A DNA stretch of 32,000 nt from Nitrosomonas europaea (GCF_900167395.1 NZ_FUWK01000013.1:20798-52797), one strand, 5' to 3'. Shown: positions 27,509-32,000, counted from the stretch's first letter. The notes: a model not told the origin generated them from the letters alone. Translations and numbers: made by a program.

Positions 27509-27701
27509 TCGTGATATTGACAATCATCACCTGAGCTGTTTTGGCCATTATCCGAGCCATCGTTTTCTTCTCCCGCACGAATTGAAATAATCTGTTTTCT
27601 GCAACAGGCAGAGAGTATTATTTGATTGACATAGTCGGATCAGATACACGATCAGAATCGATCTGACAGAAAGCGGGACTATTCAGTCAAGGAGAAAAAA
27701 C

Positions 27702-30146
27702 ATGGCCACAGAAAAACGGAGTTCCCGTTCCACCAGCAGCAAATCATCCGGCAGCAAATCAGCTGGTACTGGAAAGACCAGACAACCCGGCGTCGAACAC
27801 ATCAGTCCTTTTGCTCAATTTTCCCGTTCTGCAGCCAGCACTAAATCTGCCGAATTTCCATCGATCTTGAACAAGGAAGGCAGTTCACCGGAAGTCGGTA
27901 CGATCGTGTATATCCATGGCATAGGAAACAAACCCGTGGCATCGATCCTGAAATGCCAATGGGATACGGCACTGTTTGGTGCACCCATGGGAGATCGCAC
28001 CCGCATGGCGTACTGGGTGGATCGTAATCGTTACCCCAAACCCAAGGACGCCAGTTGTGCCGACAAGGATACGCTGCCGGAGGATGCAGGTGGAATGGGG
28101 GTACAGGCGCTGCAGGAAAACGAGCTGGAGCCGGAAATCAAACTGAGTGCGGCCGAGCGCAAAATCATGGCCGCACTGGAAGAACGTCTGCGCGCAGGAG
28201 AAAAGCAGCCCGGCGGTGTCAATGTCAAGGTACTGCCTCTGCCAGAGAGTGTGCGATTGTGGATTACCCGCCGTATTACCAAACTGTTCCTCAAGGATGT
28301 GCAGGATTTCTTTTTCGATGAGCACAAGCGCAACGTGATGGAACAGTCGCTGCGTGATCGTCTGGATGTCGGCGGTGGCCCGTTCATCGTGGTTGCTCAC
28401 AGCCAGGGCTCGATGATCGCCTATCATGTACTGCGCCAGTTGAAAAAAGCTGACTGTGACGTACGCCTGTTCATCACTATCGGTTCACCCCTCGGTATTC
28501 AGGAAGCGCAGGATGTGCTTGGCAAGATCGGTTCCGGCAAACCGCTTGCCGTGCCGGAATGTGTCGATCGCTGGCTGAATGTGGCTGAACGCCTCGATCC
28601 CGTCGCACTTGATTCAGATCTTGGTAACGATTATCAGCCTAACAGTCACGGTGTGAAGATCGAGAATCACGCCGGTTTGATGATAAATCCTGAGTGGGCA
28701 TCCAATCCCCATTCGGGTACGGGTTATCTTTCACTCGATATCGTGCGTCAGGCTGTGCGTGAGACAGCAGGTCCTACCTTCAGCAATCCGGTGGGTCGCA
28801 ATATCCTGATGAAAGATCTGGTCGACAATATCGAGGATGGCCACCGTGAGCAGAGACACCCGACACTGATTCAACTGGTTTCAGATGACGATGATGCCAC
28901 CTCGCTGGATGAGGTGCGTGATCGCCTCAGTAACCTGATAAAGAATGTCCTGATTTTCAACAACGCTGAACCCGAAGAAGGGCGCATCCAGCTTATGCGC
29001 CGTTTCATCTCGGCGGATCTGACCCGGAGTGAAATCGAGGAATTACGTTCGCACTGCAGTACATTGAAAATCGATCGCGTGTGGCGTAATGCGCTCAAGC
29101 GTACGCTGCTGCACCAATCGGCACACACGATCCAGGTGCGCCCGGCCAATCTGGGTTATGGTGCCTGTGGCCAGAATATCGCCTGGGCCGTGCTCGATAC
29201 CGGAATCGCTGCTGATCACCCGCATTTCAAAAAACACAACAATGTGGTCGCACAGTGGGATTGCACCGGCAGTGGCAGCCCCAGGGAACTGAGACTCGGC
29301 GACAGCGGGTTTGGCACACTGGATGGTCATGGCCACGGTACCCACGTTGCCGCCATCATTGCAGGCACGCTGACCTTACCGCACGATGAAAAGGATAAAT
29401 CTGAAATCCTGCTGCAGGGAATGGCACCCGAGGCCAGGCTTTACGGTTTCAAGGTGCTCAAGGACAACGGTAATGGAGAAGATGCTTTCATCATCAAGGC
29501 GCTCGATACCATTGCAGAACTGAATGAACGTGCCGGTAAACTGGTCATCCATGGTGTGAATCTCAGCCTGGGCGGCAATTTCGATCCCAGTGTTTTCGGT
29601 TGCGGTCATACGCCACTGTGTCAGGAACTGCGACGCCTGTGGCGTCAGGGAGTACTGGTATGTCTCGCGGCTGGCAATGAGGGTTACGCGCTGCTCGATT
29701 CCGCCAGTGGTGTGATACCAGCCAACATGGATCTTTCCATCGGTGATCCGGCCAATCTGGAGGAAGCCATTTCTGTTGGCTCGGTGCACAAAACCAATCC
29801 GCATACCTATGGCATTTCCTATTTCTCCTCACGCGGCCCGACTGCCGATGGACGCATGAAACCGGATCTGGTTGCCCCGGGTGAGAATATTCTCTCGGCA
29901 CGCCATCAGTGGCCGAAAAGCAAGCTCACCATGCGTAATGCGTATGTCGAGATGAGTGGTACCAGTATGGCTACCCCGCATGTTTCGGGATTGTTTGCAG
30001 CTTTTCTTTCCGCCAGACGGGAGTTCATCGGCTATCCGGATCGCGTCAAAACACTGTTGCTGCAGCATTGTACCGACCTGGCTCGTGATCCTTACATTCA
30101 GGGTAAAGGGATGCCCAATCTGGTAAGAATGATCATGAATACCTGA
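27702..30146 (+). CDS. Cytoplasmic fusion protein: lipase-like alpha/beta-hydrolase domain plus S8 subtilisin-family peptidase domain
   Basis: 814 aa, with SD aaggag upstream. The N-terminus is polar and S/K-rich with no signal peptide. Hydrolase motifs are YIHGIG, VVAHSQGS (Ser234) and ITIGSPLG. S8 motifs are AVLDTGI (Asp499), HGHGTHVAA (His545), NLSLGG and SGTSMATPHVSG (Ser755). Confidence 0.85.
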   Translation: MATEKRSSRSTSSKSSGSKSAGTGKTRQPGVEHISPFAQFSRSAASTKSAEFPSILNKEGSSPEVGTIVYIHGIGNKPVASILKCQWDTALFGAPMGDRTRMAYWVDRNRYPKPKDASCADKDTLPEDAGGMGVQALQENELEPEIKLSAAERKIMAALEERLRAGEKQPGGVNVKVLPLPESVRLWITRRITKLFLKDVQDFFFDEHKRNVMEQSLRDRLDVGGGPFIVVAHSQGSMIAYHVLRQLKKADCDVRLFITIGSPLGIQEAQDVLGKIGSGKPLAVPECVDRWLNVAERLDPVALDSDLGNDYQPNSHGVKIENHAGLMINPEWASNPHSGTGYLSLDIVRQAVRETAGPTFSNPVGRNILMKDLVDNIEDGHREQRHPTLIQLVSDDDDATSLDEVRDRLSNLIKNVLIFNNAEPEEGRIQLMRRFISADLTRSEIEELRSHCSTLKIDRVWRNALKRTLLHQSAHTIQVRPANLGYGACGQNIAWAVLDTGIAADHPHFKKHNNVVAQWDCTGSGSPRELRLGDSGFGTLDGHGHGTHVAAIIAGTLTLPHDEKDKSEILLQGMAPEARLYGFKVLKDNGNGEDAFIIKALDTIAELNERAGKLVIHGVNLSLGGNFDPSVFGCGHTPLCQELRRLWRQGVLVCLAAGNEGYALLDSASGVIPANMDLSIGDPANLEEAISVGSVHKTNPHTYGISYFSSRGPTADGRMKPDLVAPGENILSARHQWPKSKLTMRNAYVEMSGTSMATPHVSGLFAAFLSARREFIGYPDRVKTLLLQHCTDLARDPYIQGKGMPNLVRMIMNT

Positions 30147-30190
30147 GCAAGAGCCGGCCAGGTCGCTCTTGGGTTGTCTGATTATTAAGA
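30030..30190 (+). repeat. Direct repeat copy 1: 3-prime end of the S8 gene plus its downstream tail
   Basis: The coding part 30030-30146 aligns without gaps to 31044-31160, with 106 of 117 nt identical (hand alignment). The similarity resumes at gggttg.c.gattattaa after the stop. Confidence 0.85.
30148..30171 (+). terminator. Possible terminator hairpin after the S8 fusion gene
   Basis: caagagc cggccaggtc gctcttg has a 7-bp stem and a weak T-tail. Confidence 0.3.
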
Positions 30191-30218
30191 TAACCCGTGT
30201 GTTGCCGCTCCGGCGGCC

Positions 30219-30241
30219 AATATGCCCCGCTGGAGCGAGGC
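30219..30241. repeat. 23-nt hairpin repeat, copy a
   Basis: aatatgccccgctggagcgaggc is embedded in a longer imperfect palindrome, ggccaatatgccccgc tgga gcgaggccatattttggcc. It matches 30985-31007 at 22 of 23 positions. Confidence 0.6.
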
Positions 30242-30412
30242 CATATTTTGGCCACTCAATAACATAATAAATGGGCATTTTAAGCTGCGTTTTTAACGCA
30301 GAAATGGCAACGCAGGTAGTTTTTCAGAGGTTTTTTAAGCGTCTAATCACATACCTATGAGTATTACTATAAAATATGACTATGTAGATTAATAAATAGT
30401 ATGAGGAATACC

Positions 30413-30643
30413 ATGACTCATAGAGTGACTATTACGCTCGACGCAGAAACATTTGCTTTTCTGAACGATGTTGCAAGTAGTAATCGTAGCGCCTATGTTA
30501 ATCAGCTCTTAAAACAGGATCGCAAAAATTTCCTGCAGGCAGCGCTACGCAAAGCGAATCAGGAAGAGGCAGAAGATACAAACTACCAGGAAAAATTACA
30601 GGCATGGGAAAGTACGCTGTCAGATGGATTAGCCAATGACTGA
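30413..30643 (+). CDS. Ribbon-helix-helix (CopG-like) antitoxin
   Basis: MTHRVTITLDAETFAFLNDVASSNRSAYVNQLLKQ is a typical RHH beta-strand plus helices. The stop overlaps the toxin ATG (ATGACTGA). The ORF track starts at 30401, but AGGA there serves as an SD for ATG 30413. Confidence 0.8.
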   Translation: MTHRVTITLDAETFAFLNDVASSNRSAYVNQLLKQDRKNFLQAALRKANQEEAEDTNYQEKLQAWESTLSDGLAND

Positions 30644-30977
30644 TTTCAAGCAGCGGGATATTTACTGGATCGATCTTGAACCGACAAAGGGTGCGGAAAC
30701 AAGAAAATTAAGGCCATGTGTAATTATTCAAAGTGACCTGGTTAACGTTCAATCCAGAACAGTGATAGTTGCCCCTTTGCTCCTTCAGCATAAACCCTGG
30801 CCATTTGCAGTGAATCTGGAGCCCACAGAAAAAAATGGTCTGGATAAGGATCGTCATATCAACCTCAAGCAATTACGCGCGGTTGATATTTCACGCATTG
30901 GAAAAAAACAAGGCAGGCTTGAAAATAGATACAAGGATCCTATCAAAGCAGCTTTAATGATCATCTTTGATTTGTAA
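30636..30977 (+). CDS. MazF/PemK-family type II toxin (mRNA interferase)
   Basis: 113 aa. RDIYWIDLEPTKGAETRKLRPCVIIQSD...IVAPL is the hallmark PemK/MazF N-terminal pattern. It is translationally coupled to the upstream RHH gene. Confidence 0.88.
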   Translation: MTDFKQRDIYWIDLEPTKGAETRKLRPCVIIQSDLVNVQSRTVIVAPLLLQHKPWPFAVNLEPTEKNGLDKDRHINLKQLRAVDISRIGKKQGRLENRYKDPIKAALMIIFDL

Positions 30978-30984
30978 GCTGGTA

Positions 30985-31007
30985 AATATGCCTCGCTGGA
31001 GCGAGGC
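30985..31007. repeat. 23-nt hairpin repeat, copy b
   Basis: aatatgcctcgctggagcgaggc contains a perfect 7-bp stem (gcctcgc tgga gcgaggc). It starts 8 nt after the toxin stop. Confidence 0.6.
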
Positions 31008-31043
31008 GGGCTGCATTCTCACACGGAGCGTGGGAACTCAATT

Positions 31044-31160
31044 GGCTATCCGGATCGCGTCAAGGCACTGCTGCTGCAGTATTGCACCGACCTGGCCCGT
31101 GATCCCTATATTCAGGGTAAAGGAATGCTTAATCTGGTAAGAATGATCATGAATACCTGA
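31044..31160 (+). pseudogene. Orphan 3-prime fragment (last 38 codons plus stop) of a second S8-peptidase allele
   Basis: It translates to GYPDRVKALLLQYCTDLARDPYIQGKGMLNLVRMIMNT*, versus GYPDRVKTLLLQHCTDLARDPYIQGKGMPNLVRMIMNT* at the end of the intact gene. There is no upstream homology or start codon. Confidence 0.8.
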
Positions 31161-31354
31161 AAGAAAGTCAGCCGGGACACATCGCCGGGTTGCCAGATTA
31201 TTAAAAAATAAAATCATGACAAAATTTTTGGGCTGATTATGACTCAAACATAAAATAGTCAAAATAGTAATCGTATTGATCAAAAGTGCTTCCACCAGAA
31301 GAGTAGGTCACTACTCTTTCGTTCTTGACTGAGCAGTTCTAAATGGAGGGCATC

Positions 31355-31864
31355 ATGAGACGCATATACTTTTTGGTTCCAGAGATCGTTACTACCCGAA
31401 AAATTGTTGATGATTTGCTTCTGGCAAAGATTGAAGAGAGGCATATTCATGTGATCGCAAAACGTGGTACGCCGCTGGAAGATTTGCCGGAAGCCAACCT
31501 GCTGCAGAAAACTGATTTTGTTCCTGCTGTTCAGCAGGGAATTGCACTGGGTGGCGCCACAGGGCTGCTTGCCGGGCTGGTAGCCGTTGCGCTGCCACCT
31601 GCATCAGCAGTCATTGCCGGCGGCATTCTGCTGGCAACCACACTGGCGGGAGCCGGTGTCGGGTCGTGGGTAAGTGGCATGATCGGTATGACCATCGGCA
31701 ATCGGCGCATTAAAGAATTTGAGGAGGAAATCGAAGCAGGAAAACTGCTGGTACTGGCGGATGTGCCAGTCAATCGAGTCGATGAAATTGAAGATCGGGT
31801 GAAACAGCATTTACCGCAAATCGAGGTGATGCGAACAGAACCCAAGGTTCCGGCATTTCCTTAA
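31355..31864 (+). CDS. Hypothetical membrane protein with a glycine-rich TM hairpin
   Basis: 169 aa from ATG 31355, with GGAGGG 4 nt upstream. The track ORF starts at 31343. The central Gly/Ala-rich hydrophobic segments are GIALGGATGLLAGLVAVAL and GGILLATTLAGAGVGSWVSGMIGM. Confidence 0.65.
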   Translation: MRRIYFLVPEIVTTRKIVDDLLLAKIEERHIHVIAKRGTPLEDLPEANLLQKTDFVPAVQQGIALGGATGLLAGLVAVALPPASAVIAGGILLATTLAGAGVGSWVSGMIGMTIGNRRIKEFEEEIEAGKLLVLADVPVNRVDEIEDRVKQHLPQIEVMRTEPKVPAFP

Positions 31865-31901: not shown

Positions 31902-32000
31902 ATCATAGAAAAATGGATGACTTCACTACATTTGCAATGATGAGGTGTAGTAGTTCAGATTTGATCTGACAGCAGGTCTTGCCAAGAGGTGGGATTACCC

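What the first reader, a model, noticed from the sequence alone, without database searches (positions are those of the whole stretch)
30030..31208. MazF-type TA cassette sandwiched between two diverged copies of the subtilase gene 3-prime end
Seen in sequence:
- The last 117 nt of the S8 gene (30030-30146) recur at 31044-31160 with 11 mismatches and no gaps.
- Ten codons differ. Seven of those differences are synonymous and three change the amino acid (T/A, H/Y, P/L).
- Similarity resumes after the stop codon (gggttg.c.gattattaa).
- Only the RHH-MazF pair lies between the copies, about 0.9 kb.

Inference:
- The mostly synonymous divergence suggests the second copy is not a recent in-situ duplication that has since decayed.
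- It looks like the tail of a different, once-functional allele or paralogue.
- One explanation is an integrative element that targeted the gene's 3-prime end and carried a surrogate end, later reduced to its addictive TA module.
- The other is replacement of a resident S8 gene by an incoming S8+TA segment through homologous recombination, which left the old 3-prime end behind.
- Either way this is a hot spot of exchange centred on the subtilase fusion gene.
Basis: partly seen in the sequence, partly recalled or inferred. Interest (0 to 1): 0.66.

Follow-up and report, generated by a model that had tools for sequence, protein, structure and literature searches.

The report
Recombination scar around a MazEF cassette
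A toxin-antitoxin gene pair in Nitrosomonas europaea sits between the true end of a protease gene and a leftover end from a different version of that gene, which is a scar of past DNA exchange between related strains and not a new kind of mobile element.

Summary
Window 30027-30188 recurs at 31041-31204: 106/117 identical in the coding part, 10 codons differ, 7 of them synonymous, and similarity resumes after the stop. Only mazE/mazF lie between the copies.

- **Copy B is a foreign allele.** It is a 5'-truncated remnant of a different, once-selected S8 allele (pN/pS 0.11). Ten of its 11 variant states occur in intact S8 genes elsewhere. Its post-stop tail is 96% identical to that of a TA-less relative (L051) but about 61% to copy A's tail.
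- **Empty sites exist.** They are L047, L051, L006 and L048. L047 is the closest relative and carries a single A-type end.
- **The TA unit is separable.** The portable unit (about 30336-30986) occurs without S8 flanks in at least four other contexts.
- **Crossovers fall in or beside copy B** among TA-bearing strains that differ by about 1%.
- **A parallel architecture** (full S8, an unrelated 182-aa ORF, then a 1.5-kb truncated S8) exists in other Nitrosomonas.

Best reading: 3'-end displacement by one homologous crossover plus one illegitimate join (HFIR-like), later reshuffled by homologous recombination. I found no support for a decayed integrase-driven element. This is a good example of a known kind of scar, of moderate to low interest.

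The parts
27702..30146 (+). Intact S8 (subtilase) fusion gene, 814 aa. The N-terminal region is weakly alpha/beta-hydrolase-like and the C-terminal part is a Peptidase_S8 domain.
   Evidence: Pfam Peptidase_S8 4e-44. More than 100 orthologues in Nitrosomonas and other Betaproteobacteria. PADLOC 'subtilase' PDLC03014 7.7e-75.
30027..30188 (+). Repeat copy A. It comprises the last 39 codons plus stop of the live S8 gene (30030-30146 is the 117-nt core) and 42 nt of post-stop tail.
   Evidence: Three differences from the single S8 end of L047, the closest TA-less relative. Homology to the tails of empty-site genomes stops at 30188|30189.
30189..30218 (+). Spacer whose GCCGCTCCGGCGG segment is complementary to the first D4 copy. 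Together they form an 11-bp stem followed by CATATTTT, which looks like a terminator for S8.
   Evidence: RNA fold of 30189-30262: -31 kcal/mol, z = -3.2. The terminator function is inferred.
30219..30241 (+). Inner direct repeat D4, copy 1 (AATATGCCCCGCTGGAGCGAGGC). It is 31 nt long in sister strains. The window carries an 18-nt deletion immediately after it.
30262..30332 (+). 71-nt module (E71) with an 86%-identical copy elsewhere in another Nitrosomonas contig (L048 12216-12285, minus strand, upstream of an ECF sigma/FecR pair).
30336..30986 (+). Portable TA unit. It holds a promoter/operator region (promoter-like site 30346-30375), mazE (30413-30643, 76 aa; the ORF opens at 30401) and mazF (30636-30977, 113 aa, overlapping mazE by 8 nt).
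   Evidence: At 80-88% nucleotide identity the same unit, with these same limits, lies in at least four unrelated contexts. Pfam PemK_toxin 98 bits. NCBIfam MazE antitoxin 96 bits. Promoter scan. Probably NE1182/NE1181, the AAU-cutting MazF of PMC4926141; this is inferred from length, gene order and map position.
30985..31007 (+). Inner direct repeat D4, copy 2 (AATATGCCTCGCTGGAGCGAGGC; the similarity runs to 31015 against the sister-strain copy 1). It begins exactly where TA-unit homology to other contexts ends.
31032..31204 (+). Repeat copy B, a 5'-truncated S8 remnant. The 117-nt coding-derived core is 31044-31160 and the 44-nt post-stop tail is 31161-31204. Similarity is weak at 31032-31043. 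The illegitimate junction lies at about 31031-31044.
   Evidence: Identical in all TA-bearing strains examined, apart from a 1-nt deletion in L022, a single-site difference in L052, and an A-type 3' part in L027.
31161..31342 (+). B-type intergenic tail leading to the downstream gene. It is 96% identical to the tail of TA-less L051. It contains a promoter-like site at 31190-31217.
   Evidence: From about 31241 onward the sequence becomes 96-100% identical to L047.
31343..31864 (+). Downstream gene, a 173-aa glycine-zipper-like membrane protein with no family hit. In empty-site genomes it directly follows S8.

Best explanation
**What it is.** The sandwich is a recombination scar of the '3'-end displacement' type.

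**How it formed.**
- A segment from another Nitrosomonas lineage was joined into the S8 locus. It carried the 3' part of an S8 gene (A type), that gene's own downstream DNA and a mazEF unit.
- On the left, the join was a homologous crossover within or upstream of S8.
- On the right, it was an illegitimate (non-homologous or microhomology) join inside the 3' end of a second S8 allele (B type).
- This is the pattern of homology-facilitated illegitimate recombination (HFIR).
- It left a live S8 gene ending in copy A, then the TA pair, then a dead 173-nt B-type remnant followed by the normal downstream gene.

**What happened afterwards.**
- Both flanks of the cassette are homologous to the S8 locus, so ordinary homologous recombination has moved and reshuffled it among N. 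europaea-like strains.
- Crossovers fall inside or just after copy B.
- The same repeats could also delete the cassette.
- The TA pair is a self-stabilising passenger and not the agent of insertion.

**Shown.**
- The repeat itself.
- The allelic, formerly selected nature of B.
- Empty sites in relatives.
- Breakpoints at the repeat.
- The separate portability of the TA unit.
- A parallel architecture with another cargo.

**Inferred.**
- The HFIR mechanism.
- Which allele was resident.
- The role of TA addiction.
For: 1. **A and B are as different as alleles of separate lineages.**
   - They differ at 9.4% of coding sites, with pS 0.30 and pN 0.034, and at about 39% in the tail.
   - TA-bearing strains differ from each other by only about 0.7-1% in this region.

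2. **B's states come from elsewhere.**
   - Ten of 11 B states occur in intact S8 genes of other lineages.
   - The only private B state is a C->T that makes Pro->Leu in the conserved GMPNLV motif.
   - A shares its derived states with L047. B does not.

3. **Empty sites.**
   - L047 (S8 about 95% overall and about 96% in its 3' half; downstream flank 96-100%), L051, L006 and L048 have a single S8 end directly followed by the 173-aa gene.

4. **B's tail is an L051-type patch.**
   - It is 96% identical to L051's tail.
   - The adjacent ORF173 is L047-like at 97-100% and only 84-90% identical to L051.

5. **Crossovers at the repeat within the roughly 1% clade**.
   - B coding followed by a B tail: window, L019.
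   - B coding followed by an L047-type tail: L028, L052.
   - B 5' part, then an A-type 3' part, then an L047-type tail: L027.

6. **The TA unit travels alone.**
   - The unit (30336-30986) occurs without any S8 sequence or D4 repeat in an ICE-like context, in TA islands and in N. stercoris.

7. **A parallel case with a different cargo.**
   - L043 (Nitrosomonas sp. GH22), L044 and L050 have a full S8, an unrelated 182-aa ORF, and then an S8 copy truncated at about window 28650.
   - The L043 truncated copy is 97-100% identical to the window's S8, while the flanking gmhB/plsC are about 82% identical.
   - Its last roughly 150 nt and its downstream DNA are N. eutropha-like.
   - The whole module is 93% identical between L043 and L044, whose flanks are 81% identical.

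8. **Precedent.** The same model has been proposed for orphan 3' fragments in T6SS effector-immunity and Rhs arrays (PMC5361080). HFIR is defined in PMC3240628.
Against: - No donor lineage was found that has S8(A), the tail and the TA unit but lacks copy B, so the first event is reconstructed and not observed.
- No intact S8 gene with a B-type coding end was found. The closest ones are 10-11 differences away.
- The direction is uncertain. The nearest TA-less relative (L047) has an A-type end and its own tail, so B is not simply 'the old resident end' of the immediate ancestor.
- The same structure would arise from Campbell-type single-crossover integration of a circle carrying a 173-nt S8 fragment.
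- The inner D4 repeat is not explained by a single HFIR event.
- Nitrosomonas is not known to me to be naturally transformable (own knowledge, not checked here).
Confidence: 0.6

Rival explanations
1. Campbell-type integration. A small circular DNA carrying the TA region plus a 173-nt S8 3'-end fragment from another lineage integrated by a single homologous crossover within the S8 3' end. This duplicated the homologous segment on both sides.
For: - Both copies cover the same S8 interval, about 30016/30027-30188 and 31032/31041-31204. A single crossover predicts this.
- Both copies are mosaics of states seen in other alleles.
- Sequence alone cannot separate this model from HFIR.
Against: - There is no known source of such a circle, and no replication or recombinase gene on it.
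- The parallel GH22-type case would need a quite different circle (a 1.6-kb S8 fragment plus another cargo).
- The model predicts chimeric copies with one switch point each. Copy A matches L047 along its whole length (3 scattered differences), so no switch point is visible.
Confidence: 0.15
2. In-situ origin followed by allelic replacement. The TA insertion was accompanied by a local duplication of the S8 3' end that produced identical copies. Later one copy, most likely the live gene end, was overwritten by homologous recombination with a foreign S8 allele. That would create the mostly synonymous divergence.
For: - The S8 gene is demonstrably mosaic and exchanged between lineages.
- Gene-conversion-like patches occur in the copies (L027_B, L052_B, and the polymorphic TAT in copy A of L019/L028).
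Against: - It needs two events where one suffices.
- B's tail is an L051-type patch embedded in L047-like flank, so B itself, and not only A, looks imported.
- No strain was found with near-identical copies. The minimum is 8 differences, in L027, and that strain has a clear crossover pattern.
- No mechanism is known that would produce a 173-nt target duplication around a TA pair.
Confidence: 0.15
3. Decayed integrative element. A site-specific integrase-bearing element targeted the S8 3' end, supplied a surrogate end (copy A), displaced the original end (copy B), and later lost everything except its addictive TA module.
For: - The geometry fits integration into gene 3' ends: a live gene with a new end, then cargo, then the displaced old end.
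- The repeat starts with a 20-nt identical block (GGCTATCCGGATCGCGTCAA).
- A 90%-identical MazF lies next to a tyrosine integrase on a TraN-bearing element (L031).
Against: - There is no integrase, excisionase or remnant of either in the 897 nt between the copies or in the flanks of the loci listed.
- The L031 element and the other TA contexts (L037, L054, L055) contain no S8-like sequence.
- The second cargo architecture at this locus uses another boundary (about 28650) with a 1.5-kb repeat, which is incompatible with a fixed att site.
- S8-linked TA is confined to one narrow clade with MazF at least 97% identical.
- The insert is a patchwork of separately distributed modules (E71, the TA unit, D4).
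Confidence: 0.06

Closest known systems
Orphan 3' fragments and displaced modules in T6SS effector-immunity arrays, Rhs and CDI loci ('C-terminal displacement'), proposed to arise by homology-facilitated illegitimate recombination (PMC5361080 and the references in it)
   Same: - A live gene with a new 3' end, followed by incoming small genes, followed by a 5'-truncated older 3' end that keeps homology.
- A conserved upstream part that acts as the recombination anchor.
- Related strains with and without the insert.
- Later reshuffling by homologous recombination.
   Different: - The S8 ends are nearly identical in protein sequence (3 of 38 residues differ), so no polymorphic toxin tip is being swapped.
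- The cargo is a type II TA pair, not an immunity gene matched to the displaced end.
- There is only one remnant, not an array.
Homology-facilitated illegitimate recombination in transformable bacteria (Acinetobacter, S. pneumoniae, P. stutzeri) and in E. coli conjugation (PMC3240628)
   Same: One end is anchored by homology and the other is joined without homology. Foreign DNA is trapped next to the anchor, and a partial duplicate of recipient sequence can remain.
   Different: Here the process is inferred from natural genomes and not demonstrated. The route of DNA uptake in Nitrosomonas is unknown.
Integrative elements that insert in the 3' end of tRNA, tmRNA or protein genes and carry a surrogate end (own knowledge)
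   Same: The geometry: direct repeats made from the target gene's 3' end flank the cargo, and the gene stays intact.
   Different: - No integrase is present.
- The repeats are 173 nt long and 86% identical, not a short exact core.
- The boundary is not reused by the other cargo at this locus.
- The TA unit elsewhere lacks the surrogate end.
Chromosomal MazEF of N. europaea (NE1181/NE1182, an AAU-specific endoribonuclease; PMC4926141, PMC6186784)
   Same: - MazF is 113 aa, and mazE lies upstream and overlaps it.
- The MazF is 100% identical to one encoded on N. europaea-sized chromosomes (2.81 Mb).
- The gene order and map position fit NE1182/NE1181.
   Different: Identity with the published protein could not be checked residue by residue, because accessions are masked for window proteins. 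In the passages of those papers that I searched for locus names, I saw no mention of the flanking repeats.

Membership tests
Type II toxin-antitoxin system, MazEF/PemIK | Toxin with a PemK/MazF fold domain | tested here: met
   Pfam PF02452, 98 bits against a cut-off of 23.1, covering residues 5-111.
Type II toxin-antitoxin system, MazEF/PemIK | Small antitoxin gene immediately upstream, co-oriented and overlapping | tested here: met
   mazE 30413-30643 overlaps mazF 30636-30977 by 8 nt. NCBIfam NF050104 (MazE antitoxin) scores 96.2 bits against a cut-off of 65.
Type II toxin-antitoxin system, MazEF/PemIK | Sequence-specific endoribonuclease activity that the antitoxin neutralises | not testable with these tools
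   Reported for NE1181/NE1182 (PMC4926141). That this is the same locus is inferred from length, order and position.
3'-end displacement / HFIR scar | An intact gene, then cargo, then a 5'-truncated second copy of the same gene end | tested here: met
   The remnant starts at about 31032-31044 and runs through the stop codon into the tail.
3'-end displacement / HFIR scar | The remnant derives from a different allele that evolved under purifying selection | tested here: met
   pN/pS 0.11. Ten of 11 B states are present in intact genes elsewhere. A groups with L047 and B does not. B's tail is 96% identical to L051's.
3'-end displacement / HFIR scar | Unoccupied sites in close relatives | tested here: met
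   L047, L051, L006 and L048.
3'-end displacement / HFIR scar | One junction without homology (an illegitimate join) | tested here: inconclusive
   Sequence left of about 31032 (D4-2 plus spacer) has no counterpart in S8. The donor sequence is unknown, so microhomology at the join cannot be assessed. A possible extension of the similarity is marginal (p about 0.04).
Site-specific integrative element with a surrogate gene end | An integrase (tyrosine or serine recombinase) within or beside the element | tested here: not met
   The 897 nt between the copies hold only mazE and mazF. No recombinase is adjacent in any TA-bearing locus. An IS and a Tn3 found downstream are strain-specific.
Site-specific integrative element with a surrogate gene end | The same att boundary reused by independent insertions, and the element carries the target-like sequence elsewhere | tested here: not met
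   The other cargo at this locus has its boundary at about 28650. TA units in the other contexts examined carry no S8-like DNA.
Integron gene cassette | An attC site with R''/L''-L'/R' cores at the cassette end, and intI/attI nearby | tested here: not met
   D4 is a simple 7-8-bp hairpin without GTTRRRY/RYYYAAC cores (read directly). No integrase is seen in the window's ORF list (those ORFs were not scanned against family libraries).
Transposon or IS insertion with a target-site duplication | A transposase, terminal inverted repeats and a short exact duplication | tested here: not met
   No transposase lies between the repeats. The repeats are 173 nt long and 86% identical. No terminal inverted repeats were found.

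The most novel reading that the evidence does not exclude
The S8 locus of Nitrosomonas may be a dedicated cassette-exchange site.
- Cargo captured between an intact S8 gene and a truncated S8 copy carries both of its own homology arms.
- It can therefore hop between species by plain homologous recombination into any genome that has the S8 gene.
- The S8 fusion protein, which has a strong PADLOC 'subtilase' hit, might be a defence gene whose variable downstream partners (the TA pair, ORF173, ORF182) are functionally linked to it.
Probability: 0.15. Interest if true: 0.55.

Novelty: new member of a known kind. Interest (0 to 1): 0.33.

Why it matters
- It shows concretely how a chromosomal TA pair reached its present site and persists there without any dedicated mobility gene. 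N. europaea is known for its many TA loci, and this one is probably the experimentally characterised NE1181/NE1182.
- The TA unit is a roughly 650-bp passenger. It was trapped by a homologous-plus-illegitimate recombination event and is now flanked by repeats that allow transfer, conversion or loss.
- It marks the S8 gene region as an inter-species recombination hot spot in ammonia oxidisers. That matters for strain typing and for interpreting accessory-gene content in wastewater Nitrosomonas.
- It does not reveal a new mechanism.

Tried and rejected
- **Chance or assembly artefact.** Rejected: E about 1e-42, and the arrangement is present in complete chromosomes and many independent contigs.
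- **Recent in-situ duplication with neutral decay.** Rejected because of the synonymous bias, the state sharing with intact alleles, and the tenfold excess over within-clade divergence.
- **D4 hairpins or S8 repeats as ends of the mobile TA unit.** Rejected: the TA unit in the other contexts examined ends at 30336/30986 and has neither feature.
- **Integron attC, IS or transposon.** No matching features.
- **Plasmid or phage origin.** Only about 70% matches to cyanobacterial plasmid mazF genes, and no phage match.
- **Known RNA family in the region.** Only a sub-threshold Pseudomon-1/ErsA match (24 bits against a gathering score of 50).
- **Copy B unusually conserved, hence functional.** Rejected: zero differences in 117 nt is expected at roughly 1% clade divergence.
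- **An 18-nt motif shared by the S8 upstream region (27652-27669) and the IS end (31955-31972), as evidence for a composite transposon.** Rejected: the upstream motif is native and is conserved in IS-free relatives.
- **Extension of the D4 repeat into the start of copy B.** Marginal (p about 0.04).
- **Search for a donor lineage** (S8 plus TA without copy B) among MazF relatives at 83-98% identity. None found.

Full report
**1. Observation**

The window is from a Nitrosomonas europaea-type chromosome. The MazF encoded at 30636-30977 is 100% identical to one found on contigs of 2,812,094 and 2,810,989 bp. The neighbours are glyS, gmhB, plsC, S8, mazEF and a 173-aa ORF.

- The repeat is real. 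30027-30162 matches 31041-31176 at 86% without gaps, and 30171-30188 matches 31187-31204 (16/18) after a 2-nt indel.
- In the 117-nt coding core there are 11 differences in 10 codons. Seven codons differ synonymously and three change the amino acid (T/A, H/Y, P/L).
- Between the copies lie only mazE and mazF. The mazE ORF opens at 30401, with the likely start at 30413 behind a GAGGAA Shine-Dalgarno sequence. It passes NCBIfam NF050104. mazF passes Pfam PemK_toxin.

**2. Anatomy of the insert**

The DNA between the copies is modular.

- *Portable TA unit.* Homology of the TA region to its relatives in other genomic contexts covers only about 30336-30986. This span holds the promoter/operator, mazE and mazF, and ends a few bases after the stop codon. 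The other contexts are:
  - an element with a tyrosine integrase, RelE/HTH and TraN (L031-36);
  - a locus with RelE/HTH, HATPase and Mrr genes (L054);
  - a DUF1902/HicA locus (L055-58);
  - a TA island upstream of tmk in N. stercoris (L037-42).

  These copies carry neither S8-like sequence nor D4.
- *E71.* Window 30262-30332 has an 86% copy elsewhere in another Nitrosomonas contig.
- *D4.*
  - D4-2 begins exactly where the TA-unit homology ends.
  - D4-1 lies about 95 nt upstream of the unit.
  - In sister strains D4 is 31 nt long. The window has an 18-nt deletion just after D4-1.
  - D4-1 together with the upstream GCCGCTCCGGCGG forms a strong hairpin followed by a T-run. This looks like a terminator for S8.

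**3. Comparative evidence**

*Empty sites.* Four independent TA-less relatives have a single S8 end directly followed by the 173-aa gene.

| Locus | S8 identity to window | Downstream flank identity |
|---|---|---|
| L047 | about 95% overall, about 96% in the 3' half | 96-100% from 31241 onward |
| L051 | 91% | 89% |
| L006 | 89% | 86% |
| L048 | 90% | 86% |

*Same arrangement in the clade.* All genomes whose MazF is at least 97% identical carry S8, the TA pair, copy B and ORF173. Within this clade substitutions are only about 0.7-1%. Copies A and B still differ at 11 of 117 sites in nearly all members.

*Ancestry of the copies.*
- A is 3 differences from L047's single end. B is 12 differences from it.
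- At the 11 variable sites, 10 B states occur in intact S8 genes of other Nitrosomonas.
- The only private B state is the C->T that turns the conserved GMPNLV into GMLNLV.
- pS is 0.30 and pN is 0.034. The probability of at least 8 synonymous changes out of 11 under neutrality is 7e-4.
- The non-coding tail differs far more between A and B (about 39%) than the coding part does (9.4%). That is the pattern of two genes that diverged under selection, not of one live copy and one decaying copy.
- B's tail is 96% identical to the tail of TA-less L051. The adjacent ORF173 is L047-like (97-100%) and only 84-90% identical to L051. B plus about 80-170 nt of tail is thus a patch of a third haplotype.

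*Breakpoints at the repeat.* Among strains that differ by about 1%, three forms of the remnant occur:
- B coding with a B tail (window, L019);
- B coding with an L047-type tail (L028, L052);
- a B 5' part, an A-type 3' part and an L047-type tail (L027).

L022 has a 1-nt deletion in B, as expected for a non-functional fragment.

*Parallel architecture.*
- L043 (Nitrosomonas sp. GH22), L044 and L050 have a full-length S8, an unrelated 182-aa secreted ORF, and an S8 copy truncated at about window position 28650.
- In GH22 the truncated copy is 97-100% identical to the window's S8 over about 1.1 kb, although gmhB/plsC are only about 82% identical.
- Its last roughly 150 nt and its downstream DNA are N. 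eutropha-like.
- The whole module is 93% identical, without gaps, between L043 and L044, whose flanks are 81% identical.
- S8 segments with sandwiched cargo therefore move between species.

**4. Mechanism**

The simplest account is 3'-end displacement. Incoming DNA carrying an S8 3' part, its downstream DNA and mazEF recombined homologously on the left. On the right it joined illegitimately inside another S8 allele's 3' end, at about 31031-31044. The truncated remnant stayed behind.

This is the HFIR-type model already proposed for orphan fragments in T6SS and Rhs arrays (PMC5361080; HFIR is defined in PMC3240628). Once formed, the cassette is flanked on both sides by S8-locus homology. Double crossovers can then place it into TA-less relatives. 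The L027 and L028 variants are what crossovers inside or just after copy B would produce. A x B recombination could also delete the cassette while leaving S8 intact.

The TA pair probably stabilises itself by post-segregational killing. That is an inference from general TA biology.

Not shown: the original event, the donor, the direction (which allele was resident), and the route of DNA entry. A Campbell-type single crossover of a circle carrying a 173-nt S8 fragment gives the same product and cannot be excluded.

The inner D4 repeat is unexplained. It may be the scar of an earlier insertion round or a duplicated terminator (one search gives only marginal evidence that it extends further).

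**5. Rivals**

- *Decayed integrative element with a surrogate end.* The geometry and a 20-nt identical block at the start of the repeat fit. Against it:
  - there is no recombinase;
  - TA units elsewhere lack S8-like DNA;
  - the other cargo uses a different boundary;
  - the insert is a patchwork.
- *In-situ duplication followed by allelic replacement of one copy.* This stays possible because S8 is highly mosaic. It needs more events and does not explain why B itself sits in a foreign-looking patch.

**6. Comparison with known systems and novelty**

The TA pair is an ordinary MazEF. It is probably the characterised AAU-cutter NE1181/NE1182 (PMC4926141; 113 aa, and the order and position fit). 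This identification is an inference.

The sandwich belongs to the known class of displacement scars. What is slightly unusual is that the displaced gene is not a polymorphic toxin and that the cargo is a TA pair.

I rate it a new member of a known kind, with interest about 0.33. The most novel reading still open (probability about 0.15) is that the S8 locus is a dedicated cassette-exchange site, possibly defence-related. The S8 fusion protein hits PADLOC 'subtilase' at 7.7e-75.

Noticed in passing
window 27702-30146: The S8 fusion protein gives a strong hit to the PADLOC model PDLC03014 'subtilase' (7.7e-75) and weak hits to IetS/IteS anti-phage peptidase models. It may therefore be a defence-associated gene, which would fit the variability of its surroundings.
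   Followed up: no
L043 4001-8517 (Nitrosomonas sp. GH22); also L044 and L050: A second sandwich architecture: a full S8, a 182-aa secreted ORF with no family hit, and then an S8 copy truncated at about window 28650. The GH22 truncated copy is 97-100% identical to the window's S8, although the flanking housekeeping genes are about 82% identical. This indicates recent inter-species transfer.
   Followed up: partly
window 30262-30332; L048 12216-12285 (minus strand): A 71-nt segment just upstream of the TA unit has an 86% copy upstream of an ECF sigma/FecR gene pair in another Nitrosomonas contig. It may be a small dispersed intergenic element.
   Followed up: no
window 30219-30241 and 30985-31007: The inner 23-nt hairpin direct repeat (D4; 31 nt in sister strains) brackets the TA pair. 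It is absent from all non-S8 contexts of the TA unit. Its origin is unexplained.
   Followed up: partly
window 30141-30278 (minus strand): A sub-threshold Rfam match to the Pseudomon-1/ErsA sRNA (24 bits against a gathering score of 50, E = 0.046). It overlaps the S8 tail and D4-1 and is probably spurious.
   Followed up: no
window about 31946-32000; L009 5425-6468; L027 4764-8296: More plasticity just downstream. The window's strain type has an IS (rve-family transposase) that begins about 80 nt after ORF173 and is absent from L019-type strains. In strain CP157069 (L027), a Tn3 transposase and resolvase replace ORF173.
   Followed up: partly
window 27555-27755 and 28455-28755: Inside S8, two short segments drop to 82-90% identity between strains that are otherwise about 99% identical. 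These are the N-terminal low-complexity region and the linker before the S8 domain. The second coincides with the truncation point of the GH22-type remnant.
   Followed up: no
L022 3421-3536: Copy B carries a 1-nt deletion (GGATCGCG to GGACGCG) in this strain. This is consistent with B being a non-functional remnant.
   Followed up: yes
L031 2617-4834; L054; L055-L058; L037-L042: MazEF units 80-88% identical in nucleotide sequence to the window's sit in TA-rich islands. One is next to a tyrosine integrase, RelE/HTH and TraN. Others are next to HicA/DUF1902, or to Phd and Gp49/HTH pairs upstream of tmk in N. stercoris.
   Followed up: partly
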